Notes under the pieces: model-generated
What the model was told of the DNA's origin: nothing
Databases searched by the model: none
What the model saw: only the letters and a program-made list of their open reading frames with translations
Translations under genes and position numbers: made by a program
Shown: positions 1 to 27,806 of the stretch, in pieces
How the letters are laid out: each line of letters opens with the position of its first letter
Position numbering within the stretch: position 1 is the stretch's first letter
From: the human T2T-CHM13v2.0 reference genome, Homo sapiens
NCBI RefSeq assembly: GCF_009914755.1
Contig: NC_060929.1
Strand: one strand, 5' to 3'
DNA length: 64,000 bases

Positions 1-313
1 CTTTCTTTCTTTCTTTTTTTTTTTTTTTTTTTGCGATGGAATCTCGCTCTGCCACCAGCCTGGAGTGCAGCGGCTTGATCTCAGCTCCCTGCAATCTCGG
101 CCTCCTGGGTATAAGTGATTCCCCCCTGCCTCAGCCTCCTGAGTAGCTGGGACTACAGGTGCGCACCACCACACCTGGCTAATTTTTTGTATTTTAGTAG
201 AGACAGGGTTTCACCATGTTGGCCAGGACGGTCTGAATCTCCTGATCTCATGATCCGCTCACCTCACCCTCCCAAAGTGCTGGGATTACAGGTGTGAGCC
301 ACCGCGCCTGGCC
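1..313 (-). mobile_element. Alu (AluS-like)
   Basis: Poly-T then reverse-complement Alu dimer ending ...GCGCCTGGCC. Confidence 0.95.
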
Positions 314-319
314 TGCACT

Positions 320-470
320 GTTTCATTTGATTGTCACAACTTCATGAAGGAGATAACACTATTATATCCATAATTTTTTTCAGATGAGAAAGCAGAAGTT
401 TGGAGAGATTAAATACTTTTCCTAATTTAATGTATGTGAAGAAGCAGAGCCAGGACTTGAATATGACTCT
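320..470. mobile_element. MIR fragment
   Basis: CAGATGAGAAAGCAGAAG...AGAGCCAGGACTTGAA resembles the MIR core. Confidence 0.55.
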
Positions 471-485
471 TAACATCATAAAGTC

Positions 486-794
<309 letters not shown>

Positions 795-840
795 TAAAGT
801 CTTAATCACCACTTTAAATATTTCCTTAAGATATTGTTAA

Positions 841-1312
<472 letters not shown>

Positions 1313-1900
1313 TCACATCATTCGAGAAAAATCTTATTTCCTGCAAAATCAGAAATACTTCATCTGCAGTAGAAAATCATTTCAATGGGTTTGTGTTTAA
1401 GTTGGTACCATAAAATTAAACTTAGCTTAAACCTCACCTCCTCTGAGACTCTTCCTGATACCTCACTTCTGTTCTTAAATATCCCTTTTTAGTACCTGAT
1501 AGTGCCTATGCAAATCACCGAGTCACCTTTTTAATATTCTAACCTCCTGCGGTGTAGGCACCAGACTTTACTCAACTTTATATCCCCAATGTCTTTTACA
1601 GTGCTTGAATATAATCTGTGTGTAAAAAATACCTGCGAAGAATTAATCAGTTCAATGAATTTATGGCCAAATGACTGGCTTGATTGAAATGAAAGAAATC
1701 CAATTCGGTTCCTCTCAAAGGAAATCTCACAGCTGATATTATGATAATAAACAACCATTGTTTTTGTTCACATTAAGTAAACTAAATATTGGAGAAGTAA
1801 TTAAAACTCAAGAGGTGAGAATTCCGCCCCTAGATGTGAATATGAACAGATTTTGACAGTTTCCGCAGGAAAGCGCTGTACAGCCCAGGTTTTCAGTTCG

Positions 1901-1925
1901 GACGCCTGGTGGCACTACAGGCTAA
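1901..1925 (+). promoter_or_regulatory. Orphan CSE / putative CTCF site of relic 1
   Basis: GACGCCTGGTGGCACTACAGGCTAA, 23/25 identical to the PCDHB5 CSE and about 240 bp upstream of relic 1. Confidence 0.8.
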
Positions 1926-2148
1926 AAAGTAGGAGGAGGAGGAGCCCTGCATTTGCCTGCAGACTCCATCTTAGAAAAGACAAAATCTGAAAGGTGCTGG
2001 GAACAGATACGAGTTGGAAAACGTCCGCAGCGAGCTCAGATTTTAGAGCTTTCTTCAAACGAATGGGGACTACACAAATGTTTGGAAGTCTTACAGGACT
2101 TCCGAAGACTTCATTTACTAAAGGCAATGCACTCAGAGGATATACAGG

Positions 2149-3358
2149 AAATTGTGCGAGAAAAAAATCTGGCAGAAAACGCAGGTGGTGGGTTTTCATT
2201 TTCTTCCCGGGTGTAGCGCAGGCGGCCCAGGAAAAGGAAAACTGCTTTTTTATGGTCAGGGTTTCTGGAGATTGGCGCTGGCGGCGGAAAGGGGAGCGGC
2301 GGGAGGACAGACTGGAGCAGGATAGTTTCCAAAGAGACCAAATAATATTTCAGATCGACCCACAGAAGAGTCCTTGCTCTCAAGTAGAAAATCGGACCTA
2401 TAGGAGCCCTGCATTTCCAAGAATTACCTGTATTTAAAAAAAAAAAAAATTTGTCTTTTGAGAAAAATCTGTGTCTGAGGTGTAACCGTTTCCTCCTTTG
2501 AAAAATTCTTCTGAATGTTCCAGAATGTGCACCAGGAACATGTATGAGGTTTGGGTAAATTTTCCATCATTGGAAACTACACACTCATTTTCAATTTCCA
2601 TGTTCACAATAATGTGCTGTGCAATATTGGGGTAAGTAATTTGTCCATACGCGTGAAAAAAATCGCTGGATGAACCACAGCCCAAGGTAAGTTTAACTCT
2701 CCCAGAGAAGAATGGTAGATATCTGAGACCTCCTAAGTCCAAGTCATGACAATCAATGACAATCTTTGAGATGCAGGTCTCACAGCAACCGGCTGAAGAT
2801 TTAGTCTGAGTAAATAATTATGAATCGGCTCTCAGAATTCTCCAGGCTCACTGAATTCTGCAACCTCTGGAGAGCATTTTAAATGCTAGCAGAACATTTT
2901 AAATACCACTGATACCCCATGCATCATAAGCATCCACTGCAAGAGAATTACCAGGAAATTTCAGTGCCACGTGGCAAATACTCAGGCAATTACAAGCAGA
3001 AATAGTTTCAGAAATTGTTTCTTCATGTGAAGGACGGTGGAAGACCATGCCATTGGATGACAATCACATAGAATTGGTCATGTTGACACTTATCTGCCTC
3101 ATCCTGGAGCACTTCTGGGAAGACTTCATCTGTTTAAGAACCATAATCTCAGCACCCTGAGATAAAACAACAACAACAACAAAAACAAAACAAAACAAGA
3201 AAAAGCTTTGATCCTTCCTACCAGAGTTTTCTTTTCATTGGATATTTAAAATATTCCATAATCTGACAACCTAATAATGCAAACCAGAAAAGAGAGCTAC
3301 ACGCAACATCACTGTATTTCCAATGAAATTAGGTTCCAGGAAGCTCAAAACAAGACAG
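2149..3358 (+). pseudogene. Decayed protocadherin-beta relic 1 (signal peptide to EC4)
   Basis: Collinear peptides across frameshifts: QKTQVV (2173; cf QKRQV), FIFFPGVAQA, RIVSKETK (cf RVVSKGNK), KILLNVPECAPGT (2502; cf [14 protein letters not shown]), NYTLIFNFHVH (2575), SLDEPQPKVSLTL (2663), VQVMTINDN (2737), KDGG (3030), LDDNHIELVMLTLI (3053; cf [14 protein letters not shown]), NITVFPMKLGSRKLKT (3305; cf [16 protein letters not shown]). Confidence 0.85.
3164..3205. repeat. (CAA)n/(CAAAA)n simple repeat inside relic 1
   Basis: AAAACAACAACAACAACAAAAACAAAACAAAACAAG. Confidence 0.8.
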
Positions 3359-4512
3359 TAGGTAGAGACAGCTATCATCCTTGGCGTTCTTCCTTTTGGA
3401 TTCTGGATAAAAGGTAGAGGAATAACAGCACCGTTCTGAATGTTTTGGTTATTTTATGGCTCTAATTTCCATCGTGTTTTTTTTCTGAAGCATAGCTAAT
3501 TGTTCATTAACAGTTAACAGATATTGATGGCTTAGCTATTTTTATCTTTTTATCTATTTCACAAAGGTCTATTTAGAATCTAGTAGTGTATTTCCTCTTT
3601 ATTGTTAAGCACAGAAAAGGAACGCATTTTTTTCTGCTCATGCCTAGTTTCCTTTGATCTTTCTCAAAGGTAAATTACCCCTAAAACTTTGAGTAGACTG
3701 TCCTAGCAGATATTCTGAAGCTTGACAAGGAAATTCATCCCACTTCAATCCATAAAATGATAGTCTTCGTAACTTCTCAAAGAAGGTCAAGCTATTTATT
3801 TTAAAGTCATCTTTTGCTTTTCTTGATATTTCGTAAATGATGGCTGACAAGTTGTGATAGTCTACTTTTCAGCAGGACTGGTCTCCATTTACTTAGTTTA
3901 AGTAACTATTTACTTGATTACTATTATTAATATATGGTTTTAACTTTTTATTTGAAATAGTCATTTGATGATTTTGGTGATATTGATGACCACGAAATCA
4001 AATGGAGATATACAACTACAAGAAAAAAAACTGTAGAAATAAATGTCTTTTTCGTTATTTAAGACGTAAATCAACTGAGTTGCTGTGTAGCTTATTTATG
4101 TCAATGTTAAATTTGTGTTTGTTAATTTTTACTGTTTCCTTATTAAACATCAAAAATGATTAATTCTTTGGCAATTAATATCATAGCATATCCAGTACAT
4201 TAAATGTCATGTAAAACAGACCGACAAAACAATCTTATCTTTTTTTTCTTTATGTCAGTGTTTAATACTCTCCTGTATGGCTTAGGAAAATTAAAGAAGA
4301 TACAACAGAATATGCCTCAAATAAGACCTATTTGTTGATATTTAATATATTTATGATAGTTGCTGATAAAATGAAAACAGACATTATTCAATACACTGGA
4401 TAATAATTACATAAATACAAAGTGTTTGGTGTTTTCATTTGCCTTTCTCAAATACTTTTTTTCTTTCTAGAGAGTTTAATGCACTGACGGGGGGTGGGGG
4501 GCGGTCCTATAA

Positions 4513-4529
4513 TGGCACTGCAGGCTCAA
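4513..4529 (+). promoter_or_regulatory. Degenerate half-CSE upstream of relic 2
   Basis: TGGCACTGCAGGCTCAA matches the 3' half of the CSE (TGGCGCTGCAGGCTAAG); the 5' half is diverged. Confidence 0.55.
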
Positions 4530-4699
4530 ATGGTGGTTAAAGCAGATTGCAAATACAGTGCTGTATGTTTCATATTATATTACCCTGTCTGTGAAAGTTG
4601 TATTGGATGTCTAAGATTCTGGTGGCATAAGTAATAGAAACATTAGGGTGATCAGAGTTTGTGTAGGACCATATTTGCTGGAAGGTGTTAGAAGAAGGA

Positions 4700-6660
4700 A
4701 TAATGTAATACTTAAAGCCCAGTCTAAAACAAAGTGTGATTCTGTTTTACTAAGCATGTACCATTCAGGATACTGAACTGCAGAATTCTGTTCCAGAGGT
4801 GCTGGAGAGTGGTTCCTTCATTGCTAATTTTGCAGAGATTTTGGGCCTTAGGATGGGGAACTTGAGAGGTATGGGGAGCGAGAGGGTAATTCATGTTTCT
4901 ATAGATTTAAAAAACTGCATTTTCAAATCAAAAGACTCAGGAGTGGGTACTAAATAGAAATTGGATCCATCTGTGAGTCTCAAAGCACCTTGGAAAAATG
5001 TAACTCATTTGAGTTACTCATTTGCCTTGAGAAAGGTAACTTGGAAAAATGAGTTACATTTTTACAAGGTGCCTTGGACTCACAGATATAGCCATTCACT
5101 AGTGTGTATTACTGGATCTAGGAATGCTGCAAAAAATCAAGGAGAGCATCTTGTAGAGACCATATAGATGGCAGAACATGTAGACAGAGCAGTATTCATA
5201 AGTATATTTTGAATCCTAATTCCCATGTCTTCTCTTCTGTTTGCTTAGAGAATGGTGGCAGAAAATATCCTGAATGAGGATGGGCAATTTTCTCAGTGGA
5301 AAGAAATGGGTTGAGGTTAATTTAACTATCATGATATTGGATGGTGGGTCCCCACATAGATCCAAATCTGCATTGGTCTTCACCAAAGTTGTGGGTTATC
5401 AGTGATTTTACTCAGCTGTAATATATAGTAGTTCAGTACAGTAATCCCAGAAAAAAAGTTTTTCCTCCCTGGCTATCACTTTTCTATCAGGAATTTGGAT
5501 ACAAGGTATAATATAAAACTATCTTTAAGGTTTTACCGGGCTACTGAAGACTTAATGAAAACTTTAATAAAGCATTTACATTGGTATAAAAGTACCAAAA
5601 GCAAACCCATCACTCAAACCCGTAAATTCCAAGGCTATACTAATCTACAGTGTGGATTCTGAGATCATCAATAATTAAAGACTCTAGAAAATGTAACTTC
5701 TTGCTGTAAAAGACAGTCCACTCCTAATCATCATGTCATCATTTATGAACTAGGTCCCAAGGAGCCATATCTGCTTTAAGACCATATCTGCTGTTTCCTG
5801 TGTTTCAGATCCAGATCACAGAAAAAAAAATAGATATTTGGGCTTCATAATACCACCTTCCCTTCACCCTAAAGCCTTCAATAGAGGTAGATTAAAGACA
5901 AGTACAATTCTATGATTACTGCCAGAGATCTGGAGTTACTGTAAGCTGAAAGGAAACAATATAACCAGGTCTTCATTTTCACCAAACTGCCTCTGCACTT
6001 ATCAAGTATGAAAACACAGCCCTAGAGTGTGCATTTTAGCAGCACACTGCCATAAACAGAGACTTAGAAAAACACCCAAGTAACTTATTTGCTTCTGGTT
6101 TCCCAGGATGTGCAGTACTCCATGACAGTGGACACAAAGAATCTGTTTGTAAGGCCCATAAGAGTCAAGTTCTGTATGAGAGAAACAGACACTACTACTA
6201 CCATGAGCTAGCAGCATGGTGTTGGTGTGGTTGGTAATATTTGATGGCAATGGCAATTCTCCTTTGTGTTATATTTAATGCAGAACGGATTATGTGATGT
6301 TCAAGGTGGTGGCAGTAGAAGGAGACTAGGTCTGGAAGGTCTTCATGTCCTATCAGTTACTCAAAGACTTGAGTCTCCATCTGTATAGCGTGTTAGCCCA
6401 ACACTGGGAAGTGTGCACACTAGGTTTGTGAGTGATGGTAATCTAGCCAATCATAGACTTCAGGTTATGGTCAAGGACACTGAGATGCCACCTATGTATT
6501 CCAGATTCAGACAACAACTGCTGCTGGTCAGCTGTTTCTTTCAGCTCTACTGGCTACATCTTGACAGACCTCAGGAATATGGGGTCTGTCACTTAGATTC
6601 CTCACTTAGCATATACTATGGTTTTAGTATTCCTTTGTTTTCTTGTTGGCCTGCTTCTTT
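4700..6660 (+). pseudogene. Decayed protocadherin-beta relic 2 (EC1 to EC6/juxtamembrane)
   Basis: NSVPEVLESGSFIANFAEILGL (4784; cf [22 protein letters not shown]), KYILNPNSH (5200), GGRKYPE* (5254), LDGGSPHRSKSALV (5337), AVSCVSDPD (5790), LPFTLKPSIE, TQVTYLLL, IFDGNGNSP, KVVAVEGD*, SYQLLK, HRLQVMVKD (ORF 6413). Many stops and deletions; ends approximate. Confidence 0.92.
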
Positions 6661-22560: not shown

Positions 22561-23179
22561 AAATATGTGAATCTTTAATAGTCAGAGGAAAATTAATATA
22601 ATATTTCCTTTCACTTTAAGTACTTTATAGAGATGTTTGAATCTGGCTGTTTTGGTCAGATATTTTTCTTCTTTGCATACGTAGCTGATTTTCCATGAAT
22701 ATCAGGAAAAGGCATAGAATTCTGATCAAGATTTCTCTCTCTTTGATTACCTTAGTCCCAGGTGGTATCAGAGCCAGGGAAGTACTCAACTGTGGAAAAT
22801 ATAGAGGGCAGTTCTTTTGGGGACTAATATGGTATATGATCGGAGACTAAAGTTCAAAAGGCAATATGCTGAGTCATTTAGACACTGAAGATAGAAGAAC
22901 AGATACCATTTGTAATTTAGTTTTTAGATGTACTGGACTTATACATTGTTGAGAAAATGAATAGAATTTAGCAAAGCCAGAAAAGATAATCTATACTAAA
23001 TTTGAAGGTGGGAAACAATCACATCTTACTCTTGGTTCAAAGCTGCTTCTCTTTCAGGGCAGTTAGAAACCTTTTACCCTTTTATTTGAAGACAACTTCC
23101 AAAAACATATTCATCTGGATATTTCATTAAATACAGAACAGAGAGAGTACCACATGTACAGTACTAACTAGTGTTGCCA

Positions 23180-24987: not shown

Positions 24988-25441
<454 letters not shown>

Positions 25442-25805
25442 TCAGGGAATGTCACTGCTTCTTGGTTGTCACGGTTTCTGCTAAGGCTATAGACATGGAA
25501 GCTAATGGAGAAATTTAAAATGTTTCAATCTTCAGAGTAAATAAGTTGATTTTTAGGAAAAGTGAACTGTAACTGAAGCAATTGACACATGGGGACTATG
25601 TGGAAAACATCATGGTCTGGATTCAAGTTACAGCATTCATGGTAATGCTCAGAAAGATAATAACATACTCCAAGATTCCACTGAAATAGTGGTTGCTATT
25701 TTTTTTTTTAGAAAATAGCTTGGGACTCTGGTGATAATGCAAAATGGGCTTGCTCCTTCCAAGACAATCTCCTCATGAAACCATTTGTCAAAAATTAGTG
25801 TTCTG

Positions 25806-26090
25806 GGACTGGGCACAGTGGCTCATGCCTTTAATCCCAGCACTTAGGGAGGCCGAGACAGGAGGATTGCTTGAGCCCAGGAGTTCAACAACAGCCTGGG
25901 AAACATAGTGAGACTCTGTCTCTACAAAAAATTTTAAAAATTGACTGGGTGTGGTGGCATGCACCTGAGGTCCTAGCTACTGAAAAGGGTGAGGTGGGAG
26001 GATCCTCGAGCCCAGGAAGTTGAGGCTGCAGCAAGCCATGATCATGCTGTAGCCTGGGTAATACAGCCAGACTCTATCTCAAAAAATAAA
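25806..26090 (+). mobile_element. AluJ inserted in relic 3 (EC4)
   Basis: Diverged Alu interrupting KPFVKN..|..ILVTEK. Confidence 0.9.
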
Positions 26091-27806
26091 ATTATTTTGG
26101 TAACAGAGAAGTCAGGGCTCTGCACCATCTCTTACTAGGGTGGAATCTAACATGCAGAAATATAGCACAACATAATCACACTGTTCTTCAACACTGTCAA
26201 CAATTCCCTGACCCAAACCTCATGTACCTTATTAATTCACAATAAAAAGAAAGTCCTACTCAGAATGATGATAGTATCACTGCCAAAAACAGAGACTATC
26301 TAGGGACTAATACCTAAGTCACTTTCCCACAGCTGCCCAAAGACGTATTCCTCAGCCCTCTCTTGGTATCCATCTGCATGGACAATGGAACCTGTGTGCT
26401 TTGATGTCCCTGGTTTTTGAGATTCTTGAAGAGTTTGAGTTCTAAATGTGTCTGGAGCTTTCTGGAGTTGAGCATCAAGATGTGCAGATCCTGGATGACA
26501 CACAGCTATAATAGCTAGATAACAAAGAAAATTTATTATAAAGCAATTCTATATTGTGTACTGAGCTGTCCAGGTAGAAAAAAAGTGGTAACCCAGTGAT
26601 GACTTGGGCTAGAACTCATGACTATTTTATTGGTGATTCGAGGCCTCAGAGCCCTGGATGTTAGCATGTGGGCCCACAGCCTGGAAGTACAGAGTATGTG
26701 AAGCACATCTAGGCTTCTAAAAGACAACCACAACCAGGCATAAGCTGGTGCTGTTATTAAGGACAAGTGGAAGCCACCTTTATTTGCCATGATCATCCTA
26801 CACCTGGTCTAGGACTTACCCCAGTCTTCTCTTCCATTCCTTTAACCACCCATAAAAGGATTTCCATTTTCTTGATCACTGATTTGACTCAGTCTTCTTT
26901 CTCTTTCAATTCTCTCTGTTCCTGTGCTACTCAGATGTGGAGGGTCAACTGGGAAACTTCAGTGCATTGCTGCTCAAAAGAAAGACTCTTCCTGAGCATT
27001 TTGGGAGTATCAACACCACTGGGATTTAGTTCTAGAGCTTTCAGTGTGAGAAGTTTCTGGAATATCAGAAACAAATATCAAATTTCTGAAGCCAATTGTC
27101 TCTAATTAATGTGAGCTATCTATGAGGAAAGACTTTTAAAAGAAATTTAATTTCTAGAACAATGTGAGATTTATTTTTTAAAAATTGTATTCTCTAAATT
27201 GTATCTTTCTGAGGTTTTTTGTTTAAATTTATCTCTGAGGAAATGAATTTCTTCATCCCAAATGTTTCAATTCTATTTAATTTAAAGTAGGTAACTGGCA
27301 GTGTTGAAGTTTCATTGTCTATGTTTGTTATTACAAAAAAGGGTATTGTATATTTTACTGCAATTTTAAAAAAGAATATATTCTGAGCATCAGTGAAAAT
27401 GGTAGAGAATGGACCTCTGAAAAATCTCTTCTCCAGGAAAGCACTGAGGAAAATGAGAAAAATTTTCAAAATCTACTGCTTCAGAACTCTGAAATTTAAA
27501 CAAAGATGTACAGCAACTTAGGGAAAATTTATTGAGGGAAAAAGGTCTGACTCTTGGTTAAAAATAGTGGTTTTTGTGGCATTTTAACTGGCCTATTTCC
27601 ATCTCCATCTCTCTAGCTTCTTAGTAGCCTTTAAAGTTAACAATTTACAATCACAATGAAAATTAGCAGCTTGGCAGCCACCAGAGGAAACAGAACAGCA
27701 CCACAAAGAATTGTCATTATTTGATCTGTTTGGTGGTTCCCTGGAGGACTCCACTTGCAAGGCTGTCTTTAATTGCCTGAATTAGAGCTTGTCTAGTACA
27801 AAAAGT

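What the first reader, a model, noticed from the sequence alone, without database searches (positions are those of the whole stretch)
2149..3358. Hidden PCDHB relic 1, PCDHB2-like, ending near the start of the homogenised block
Seen: about ten collinear cadherin motifs from signal peptide to late EC4 once frameshifts are allowed. Some resemble PCDHB2 in particular (GVAQA vs GIAQA; NFHVH vs NFHFH; ELVMLTLI vs ELTMSTLI). I could not trace homology past RKLKT, which is about where the CpG-rich shared block begins in intact genes. The ORF track does not show it as a gene. Inference: an ancient lost paralog. Relic sequences have been reported in Pcdh clusters, so novelty needs checking.
Basis: partly seen in the sequence, partly recalled or inferred. 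Interest (0 to 1): 0.7.

Follow-up and report, generated by a model that had tools for sequence, protein, structure and literature searches.

The report
Dead protocadherin gene, surviving promoter
This is the decayed front half of an old copy of a human neuron-identity (protocadherin-beta) gene whose coding sequence is wrecked but whose promoter is still as CpG-rich as those of working copies and still carries the cluster's CTCF-type motif, so it likely remains a live regulatory site that could act as an extra, uncounted chromatin anchor in the cluster.

Summary
The relic is real. Window 2121-3357 aligns collinearly to PCDHB2 nt -5..1310 (59% identity; score 12,602 against 2,005±190 for 60 shuffles). 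It runs from an ATG at 2127 to late EC4 with about 42 indels. The 3' half is absent, not merely hidden. PCDHB2 is the best of 19 beta paralogs, but tree support is weak (UFBoot 45-65). Relics in this cluster are already in print as a class.

A family-grade conserved sequence element (CSE, the Pcdh CTCF site) lies at 1898-1925, 229 bp upstream of the ATG. It is the only such site in about 211 kb that does not precede an annotated gene. The 529 bp around it hold 21 CpGs (intact genes 7-22; equally old neighbouring relic 3; background mean 1.7). Its CGCT box reads CACT, which removes the CpG whose methylation blocks CTCF.

Best reading: a gene dead probably since before the placental radiation, whose promoter likely stays unmethylated and CTCF-bound. 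Binding, methylation and cross-species conservation were not testable here, and CSE sequence retention alone is not significant (P 0.01-0.15).

The parts
1898..1925 (+). Promoter conserved sequence element (CSE; Pcdh CTCF-site motif) in forward orientation; CGCT box changed to CACT
   Evidence: 25 of 28 identical to the PCDHB5 CSE, 229 bp 5' of the relic ATG against 242-275 bp in the 17 genes and pseudogenes that have a CSE. 34.1 bits on a beta-CSE matrix whose leave-one-out range for intact genes is 25.9-47.0. 11.4 bits on an independent alpha+gamma matrix on which intact beta genes score 0.1-26.5.
1798..2326 (.). CpG-retaining promoter-like region
   Evidence: 21 CpG, observed/expected 0.72; the same window holds 7-22 CpG in intact genes and 3 in relic 2. 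Among 876 non-gene, non-Alu windows the only equal is the annotated PCDHB1-AS1 5' end.
2127..3357 (+). Decayed PCDHB coding relic, from ATG and signal peptide to late EC4 (PCDHB2 nt 1-1310, residue about 437)
   Evidence: 59% DNA identity, far above shuffles; about 42 indels, 31 frameshifting (alignment-dependent); stop at codon 30 from the ATG.
2177..2419 (+). Signal peptide and EC1 remnant (PCDHB2 nt 38-301)
   Evidence: Score 5,523; 0 of 200 shuffles reach it.
2489..2785 (+). EC2 to start of EC3 remnant (PCDHB2 nt 402-765)
   Evidence: Score 5,625; 0 of 200 shuffles reach it.
2917..3167 (+). Late EC3 to early EC4 remnant; also present as a 250-bp copy at window -18768..-18518 (L007) inside an old LINE-1
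   Evidence: 76% identity over 214 columns, K2P 0.29. The copy is PCDHB-derived and its host matches the LINE-1 ORF2 endonuclease at E 0.001. 30 of 120 conserved columns are shared-derived and both carry a 7-nt deletion.
3192..3357 (+). Late EC4 remnant; 3' end of the relic
   Evidence: Anchored score 1,811 against 1,128±92, 0 of 200 shuffles. No homology to the 3' block in 3360-4490 (1,336 against 1,320±96), whereas relic 2's block scores 13,611.
2063..2437 (+). 124-codon ATG ORF overlapping the signal-peptide frame; probably incidental
   Evidence: 32 of 1000 shuffles of 1900-3400 reach this length; no significant BLASTP match to PCDHB2; its only database hit is a near-identical unnamed prediction.

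Best explanation
This is an old, unprocessed, 3'-truncated PCDHB pseudogene relic, closest to PCDHB2, whose coding part is destroyed but whose promoter likely still works as an unmethylated, CTCF-bound element. Shown: collinear homology from promoter to late EC4; loss of the 3' half; a forward CSE at the canonical distance; promoter-level CpG density against a fully decayed sister relic of the same age. Inferred: tandem duplication near the base of the beta radiation; death probably before the placental radiation; lasting germline hypomethylation as the reason the CpGs survive; CTCF binding. Because the CGCT box has become CACT, the CpG whose methylation blocks CTCF at normal Pcdh promoters is gone. 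If bound, the site would be less switchable at that position than a normal promoter CSE (an upstream CpG at 1903 remains). It would be a forward cohesin barrier at the 5' end of the beta array, where PCDHB1 has no site. No protein is expected.
For: Homology. CSE in family range and the only family-grade site without an annotated gene in about 211 kb. CpG 21 against 3 in relic 2: binomial P 1.4e-4, or 0.006 after adjusting for composition; both relics match invariant coding columns equally, 73-79%. Natural positive control: the only other non-gene CpG-rich window is a known lncRNA promoter. Flanks of the CSE match no paralog well (z at most 3.3), so this is not a recent promoter conversion. An A at the changed position occurs in the HS5-1b site (mouse guide sequence in the supplement of PMC7087399; matching human site at window about -41330), which that paper calls CpG-free and constitutively bound (passage). 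It also occurs in 1 of 48 intact CSEs. Methylation of the CGCT CpG precludes CTCF binding (PMC7811963 passages).
Against: No binding, methylation, accessibility or cross-species data were available. CSE sequence retention (17 of 19 conserved columns) is significant against a 63% decay baseline (P 0.011) but not against the 73-77% seen in well-aligned columns (P 0.08-0.15). CGCT is kept in 45 of 48 intact CSEs, so CACT may be ordinary CpG decay in a dead site. On the independent matrix the site scores at the low end (11.4; 13 of 15 intact beta genes score higher). CpG richness shows hypomethylation at best, not CTCF as its cause. The RefSeq functional-element list supplied with the finding has nothing here. 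The PCDHB2 grouping is weakly supported.
Confidence: 0.6

Rival explanations
1. A wholly inert relic: the CSE survives by chance, and the CpGs by GC-biased conversion or passive spread of hypomethylation, with no factor bound.
For: CSE retention is not significant against well-aligned coding columns; the near-invariant CGCT box is altered; relic 2 still shows a recognisable CSE remnant by decay alone (13 of 19 conserved columns).
Against: CpG enrichment is centred on the CSE-to-ATG interval and has the same profile as intact promoters (8 and 12 CpG in the first two 250-bp bins, against 1 and 1 in relic 2). The nearest known promoters are 6.5 and 10 kb away with CpG-poor DNA between.
Confidence: 0.2
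2. The old promoter is alive but reused for something else (a non-coding transcript or an enhancer), with CTCF incidental.
For: The CpG-densest part is 2150-2310, 3' of the CSE. A lncRNA promoter lies 6.5 kb upstream (annotation). A 124-codon ORF and donor-like GGTAAG sites at 2631 and 2686 follow the promoter.
Against: No annotated transcript starts here (annotation supplied); the ORF is only marginal (32 of 1000 shuffles) and has no homologs beyond a near-identical copy.
Confidence: 0.17
3. On origin only: the copy was born truncated (a partial duplication of promoter plus 5' half) and never encoded a protein, so no intact ortholog ever existed.
For: The 3' half is absent and 3360-4490 is 30% GC; the relic branch is 0.57-0.62 substitutions per site against 0.17-0.18 for PCDHB2, which fits death soon after birth; the end falls near the edge of the conversion-prone block.
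Against: Relic 2, of similar age, is nearly full length, so whole-gene deaths happen here; the relic has many internal deletions of up to about 27 nt, so later loss of the 3' end is plausible; branch lengths are inflated by misalignment.
Confidence: 0.3

Closest known systems
'Relic (r)' variable-exon sequences of the human clustered protocadherin loci
   Same: Unprocessed, in-cluster, same-strand and far more decayed than named pseudogenes. A review figure legend states that relics or pseudogenes are present in all three human clusters (PMC7766791, legend only).
   Different: I could not see the figure or the original cluster maps (not held), so whether this exact relic was drawn is unknown. 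None of the passages read mentions a relic that keeps a promoter.
PCDHB17P and PCDHB18P (named beta pseudogenes)
   Same: Dead beta genes that keep a CSE (40.5 and 38.7 bits) and CpG-rich promoters.
   Different: They are young (350 and 342 of 356 invariant coding columns intact), so retention needs no explanation. The relic keeps its CSE after losing about a quarter or more of such columns and half the gene.
PCDHB2 (intact neighbour)
   Same: Best-scoring of 19 paralogs; shares GIAQA-like and NFHFH-like motifs and the ATG context.
   Different: Weak tree support; the relic's CSE is closer to PCDHB5's (25 of 28) than to PCDHB2's (19 of 28).
HS5-1b boundary CTCF site
   Same: Shares the GGTGGCA core without the box CpG; described as constitutive.
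   Different: HS5-1b is a reverse-oriented, enhancer-flanking site with a near-perfect core; the relic site is forward, promoter-derived, keeps one upstream CpG, and its binding is untested.

Membership tests
PCDHB unprocessed pseudogene/relic | Collinear homology to a beta single-exon gene, above chance | tested here: met
PCDHB unprocessed pseudogene/relic | Closer to beta 2-16 genes than to PCDHB1, in tandem on the same strand | tested here: met
   PCDHB1 scores lowest of 19 (3,855); + strand. Alpha and gamma coding sequences were not compared.
PCDHB unprocessed pseudogene/relic | Disabled reading frame | tested here: met
   Stop at codon 30, about 31 frameshifting indels, no EC5-EC6, transmembrane or cytoplasmic part.
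PCDHB unprocessed pseudogene/relic | Duplicated with its promoter (not retroposed) | tested here: met
   CSE 229 bp upstream of the ATG.
Ortholog or direct duplicate of PCDHB2 | Supported sister relationship | tested here: inconclusive
   Sister in 3 of 3 trees, UFBoot 47, 65 and 45.
Pcdh promoter CSE / CTCF site | Family motif at about 240-275 bp upstream of the ATG, forward orientation | tested here: met
   34.1 bits, 229 bp (slightly short), + strand.
Pcdh promoter CSE / CTCF site | CGCT box | tested here: not met
   Reads CACT; CGCT is in 45 of 48 intact CSEs and CACT in 1 of 48. So it is a variant CSE, not a canonical one.
Pcdh promoter CSE / CTCF site | CTCF/cohesin occupancy | not testable with these tools
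   No ChIP data; the one mouse peak list read has no peak between chr18:37.22 and 37.65 Mb, where I recall the Pcdhb cluster lies, so it is uninformative.
Pcdh promoter CSE / CTCF site | Conservation across mammals | not testable with these tools
   No relatives are held for this genome.
Live (germline-hypomethylated) promoter | CpG retention at promoter level | tested here: met
   Observed/expected 0.72, 21 CpG in 529 bp; this is a proxy, and methylation itself was not measured.

The most novel reading that the evidence does not exclude
A protocadherin-beta gene that died over 100 million years ago left its promoter behind as an exapted, gene-less forward CTCF site. By losing the methylation-switch CpG it became a near-constitutive loop anchor facing HS5-1b and the downstream super-enhancer, a 'null isoform' slot that sets the 5' edge of the beta array and tunes how often PCDHB2 and its neighbours are chosen.
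Probability: 0.2. Interest if true: 0.7.

Novelty: new variant of a known kind. Interest (0 to 1): 0.42.

Why it matters
Models of protocadherin promoter choice count one forward CTCF site per beta gene, none for PCDHB1 (PMC7811963 passages), and hold that the number and spacing of these sites balance isoform usage (PMC7087399 passages). An extra site with no gene behind it would be a natural experiment that separates the anchor from the gene it served. It can be deleted without touching any coding sequence, and relic 2, 2.6 kb away with a decayed CSE, is a built-in control. It would also be a clear case of a pseudogene kept for its promoter. If the site is unbound, the finding is an ordinary unannotated relic of low interest.

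Tried and rejected
Chance resemblance: rejected.

Hidden 3' half in 3360-4490: rejected with plain and CpG-depleted queries, while relic 2's block is found easily.

Recent conversion of the promoter from PCDHB5: rejected, since the flanks are barely similar and a genome search found no other copy of the promoter.

That 2917-3167 is a repeat rather than cadherin sequence: rejected. Its single other copy (these searches skip common words) itself aligns to PCDHB nt about 940-1150 (best 5,002 against a shuffle maximum of 2,376). The apparent extension to 2809 is not significant (82 of 500 shuffles).

CSE conservation as proof of selection: weakened by my own stricter baseline.

The 124-codon ORF as a new protein: no support.

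Pfam on the read-through frames: nothing. Rfam on L001 and L009: one Alu/SRP-like hit only.

One search had a column-mapping bug; its identities are discarded and one search replaces it.

Literature: 10 searches found no paper describing this relic or a CTCF site between PCDHB1 and PCDHB2; I saw listings for most hits. The key primary papers (Wu 2001, Wu 2005, Noonan 2004, Guo 2012 and 2015, Yin 2017, Canzio 2019) were not held, and the main supplement of PMC7087399 was too large to read. These may show the relic or a peak here. Passages in PMC10703910, 10.1101/525543, PMC11968269, PMC6617643, PMC4700959, PMC2819257 and 10.64898/2026.07.18.739380 did not bear on the site; PMC5674152 was a wrong paper.

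Full report
Observation. Local DNA alignment of window 1500-4600 to PCDHB2 gives one collinear match, 2121-3357 against nt -5..1310, with 668 of 1133 columns identical and a score of 12,602; 60 dinucleotide shuffles gave 2,005±190. A profile built from 15 intact beta genes finds 1889-3119 at E 1.7e-28. All four quoted motifs appear in the read-through frames. At protein level the signal is faint (best tBLASTn piece E 0.022; no Pfam hit), which may be why annotation has nothing here. The relic has about 42 indels, 31 of them frameshifting (alignment-dependent), and a stop at codon 30 from its ATG at 2127.

End point. Identity among intact genes rises from 0.69 to 0.83 at nt 1231 and to 0.97 at nt 1351. 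The block is absent: 3360-4490 scores 1,336 against 1,320±96 for shuffles, also with CpG-depleted queries, while the same test on the neighbouring relic scores 13,611. Whether the coincidence with the block edge is mechanistic I cannot say; the two other relics in the window include the block.

Affinity. PCDHB2 is the best of 19 beta genes and pseudogenes by local score (12,602; next 9,307) and by identity in confidently aligned columns, and is the sister in 3 of 3 trees, but with UFBoot of only 45-65. 'PCDHB2-like' is fair; 'derived from PCDHB2' is not established.

Age. At coding columns conserved among intact genes the relic matches 73-79% where the alignment is confident and 55-63% in a cruder alignment; PCDHB17P and PCDHB18P match 98% and 96%. 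A 250-bp piece (2917-3167) has one other copy about 21.7 kb upstream, 76% identical, K2P 0.29, embedded in an old LINE-1. The two share a 7-nt frameshifting deletion and 30 derived states in 120 conserved columns, against 18 and 8 private ones (joint misalignment inflates the shared count). So the gene was already well decayed when the copy was made, roughly 0.15 substitutions per site ago. Taking the human-to-placental-ancestor neutral distance as about 0.15-0.2 (recalled), death probably predates the placental radiation.

The promoter. At 1898-1925, 229 bp before the ATG, lies a CSE that is 25 of 28 identical to PCDHB5's. It scores 34.1 bits on a matrix of 15 intact beta CSEs (leave-one-out range 25.9-47.0). 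In about 211 kb from PCDHB1 to beyond PCDHB15 it is the only site of that grade not in front of an annotated gene; the next best unassigned site scores 19.2 and relic 2's remnant 13.8. The CSE is the CTCF-bound element of Pcdh promoters, and PCDHB1 lacks one (PMC7811963 passages; PMC3333863 parts 2-4 of 7). Sequence retention alone does not prove selection: 17 of 19 conserved columns gives P 0.011 against the crude baseline but 0.08-0.15 against the strict one.

CpG retention is the stronger evidence. The 529 bp from 100 bp before the CSE hold 21 CpGs (observed/expected 0.72). The same window holds 7-22 in the 15 intact genes and 3 in relic 2, which is equally decayed in its coding part (P 1.4e-4, or 0.006 adjusted for composition). 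Among 876 overlapping non-gene, non-Alu windows across the cluster, only the 5' end of the annotated lncRNA PCDHB1-AS1 equals it; the 855 windows away from the relic average 1.7 and, that promoter apart, reach at most 8. Methylated CpGs decay quickly (established), so their survival over this span implies lasting germline hypomethylation. That step is inference. The flanks resemble no paralog closely, so a recent promoter conversion is unlikely.

The altered box. The CGCT box reads CACT. Against function: CGCT is kept in 45 of 48 intact alpha, beta and gamma CSEs examined, and the relic scores low on an independent alpha+gamma matrix. For function: one intact alpha promoter has CACT (L050, probably PCDHA9 by gene order), and HS5-1b, described as CpG-free and constitutively occupied (PMC7087399 passage), has an A at this position (identified by match to the mouse guide sequence). 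Methylation of the CGCT CpG precludes CTCF binding, so the change removes the usual off-switch; a second CpG at 1903 remains. The structural paper that would say whether zinc finger 3 accepts this base was not held.

Mechanism. Most likely: a tandem duplicate with its promoter arose early in the beta expansion; the coding part died and lost its 3' half; the promoter stayed unmethylated and probably CTCF-bound, leaving a forward site between PCDHB1 and PCDHB2. In the loop-extrusion model each forward site is a partial barrier that helps allocate enhancer contacts, so this site could take part without producing an isoform. I put a live element with CTCF at 0.6, a live element for other reasons at 0.17, an inert relic at 0.2, and a measurable effect on isoform choice at about 0.2.

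Novelty. Relics in the human Pcdh clusters are known as a class (figure legend of PMC7766791); I could not see whether this one is drawn. Ten searches found no description of a relic with a retained promoter or of a CTCF site in this interval, but the main primary papers and one large supplement were unavailable, and public ChIP tracks may already show a peak. The relic itself is an ordinary new member of a known kind; the surviving promoter makes it a variant that is worth one look at existing data.

Noticed in passing
window 4655-6555: Second, nearly full-length PCDHB relic (E 1.6e-66) with a decayed CSE at 4501-4528 and no CpG retention; a natural control of the same age.
   Followed up: partly
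window 22704-22852 and 25414-27173: Further relic pieces between PCDHB3 and PCDHB4; the 3' part is interrupted by an Alu-like insert near 25810-26090; no CSE or CpG excess.
   Followed up: partly
L007, window -18768..-18518: A 250-bp copy of relic sequence sits inside an old LINE-1, between ORF1-like (recognised from memory) and ORF2 endonuclease sequence; it looks like a templated insertion.
   Followed up: partly
window 4948-5108: Inverted repeat, 70% over 162 bp, inside relic 2; possibly a small transposon or hairpin insertion.
   Followed up: no
L009, window -5400..-4200: CpG-rich promoter at the 5' end of PCDHB1-AS1, with no protocadherin homology.
   Followed up: partly
L050, position about 269-296: An intact alpha gene (probably PCDHA9 by order) has CACT in place of CGCT in its CSE.
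   Followed up: no
L010, window 65781-65808 and 67311-67338: A CSE-like 28-mer (19.2 bits) lies 1.5 kb upstream of PCDHB6's own CSE, which has an atypical CGGT box.
   Followed up: no
L020, upstream of window 157226: PCDHB19P has no CSE-grade site, unlike PCDHB17P and PCDHB18P.
   Followed up: no
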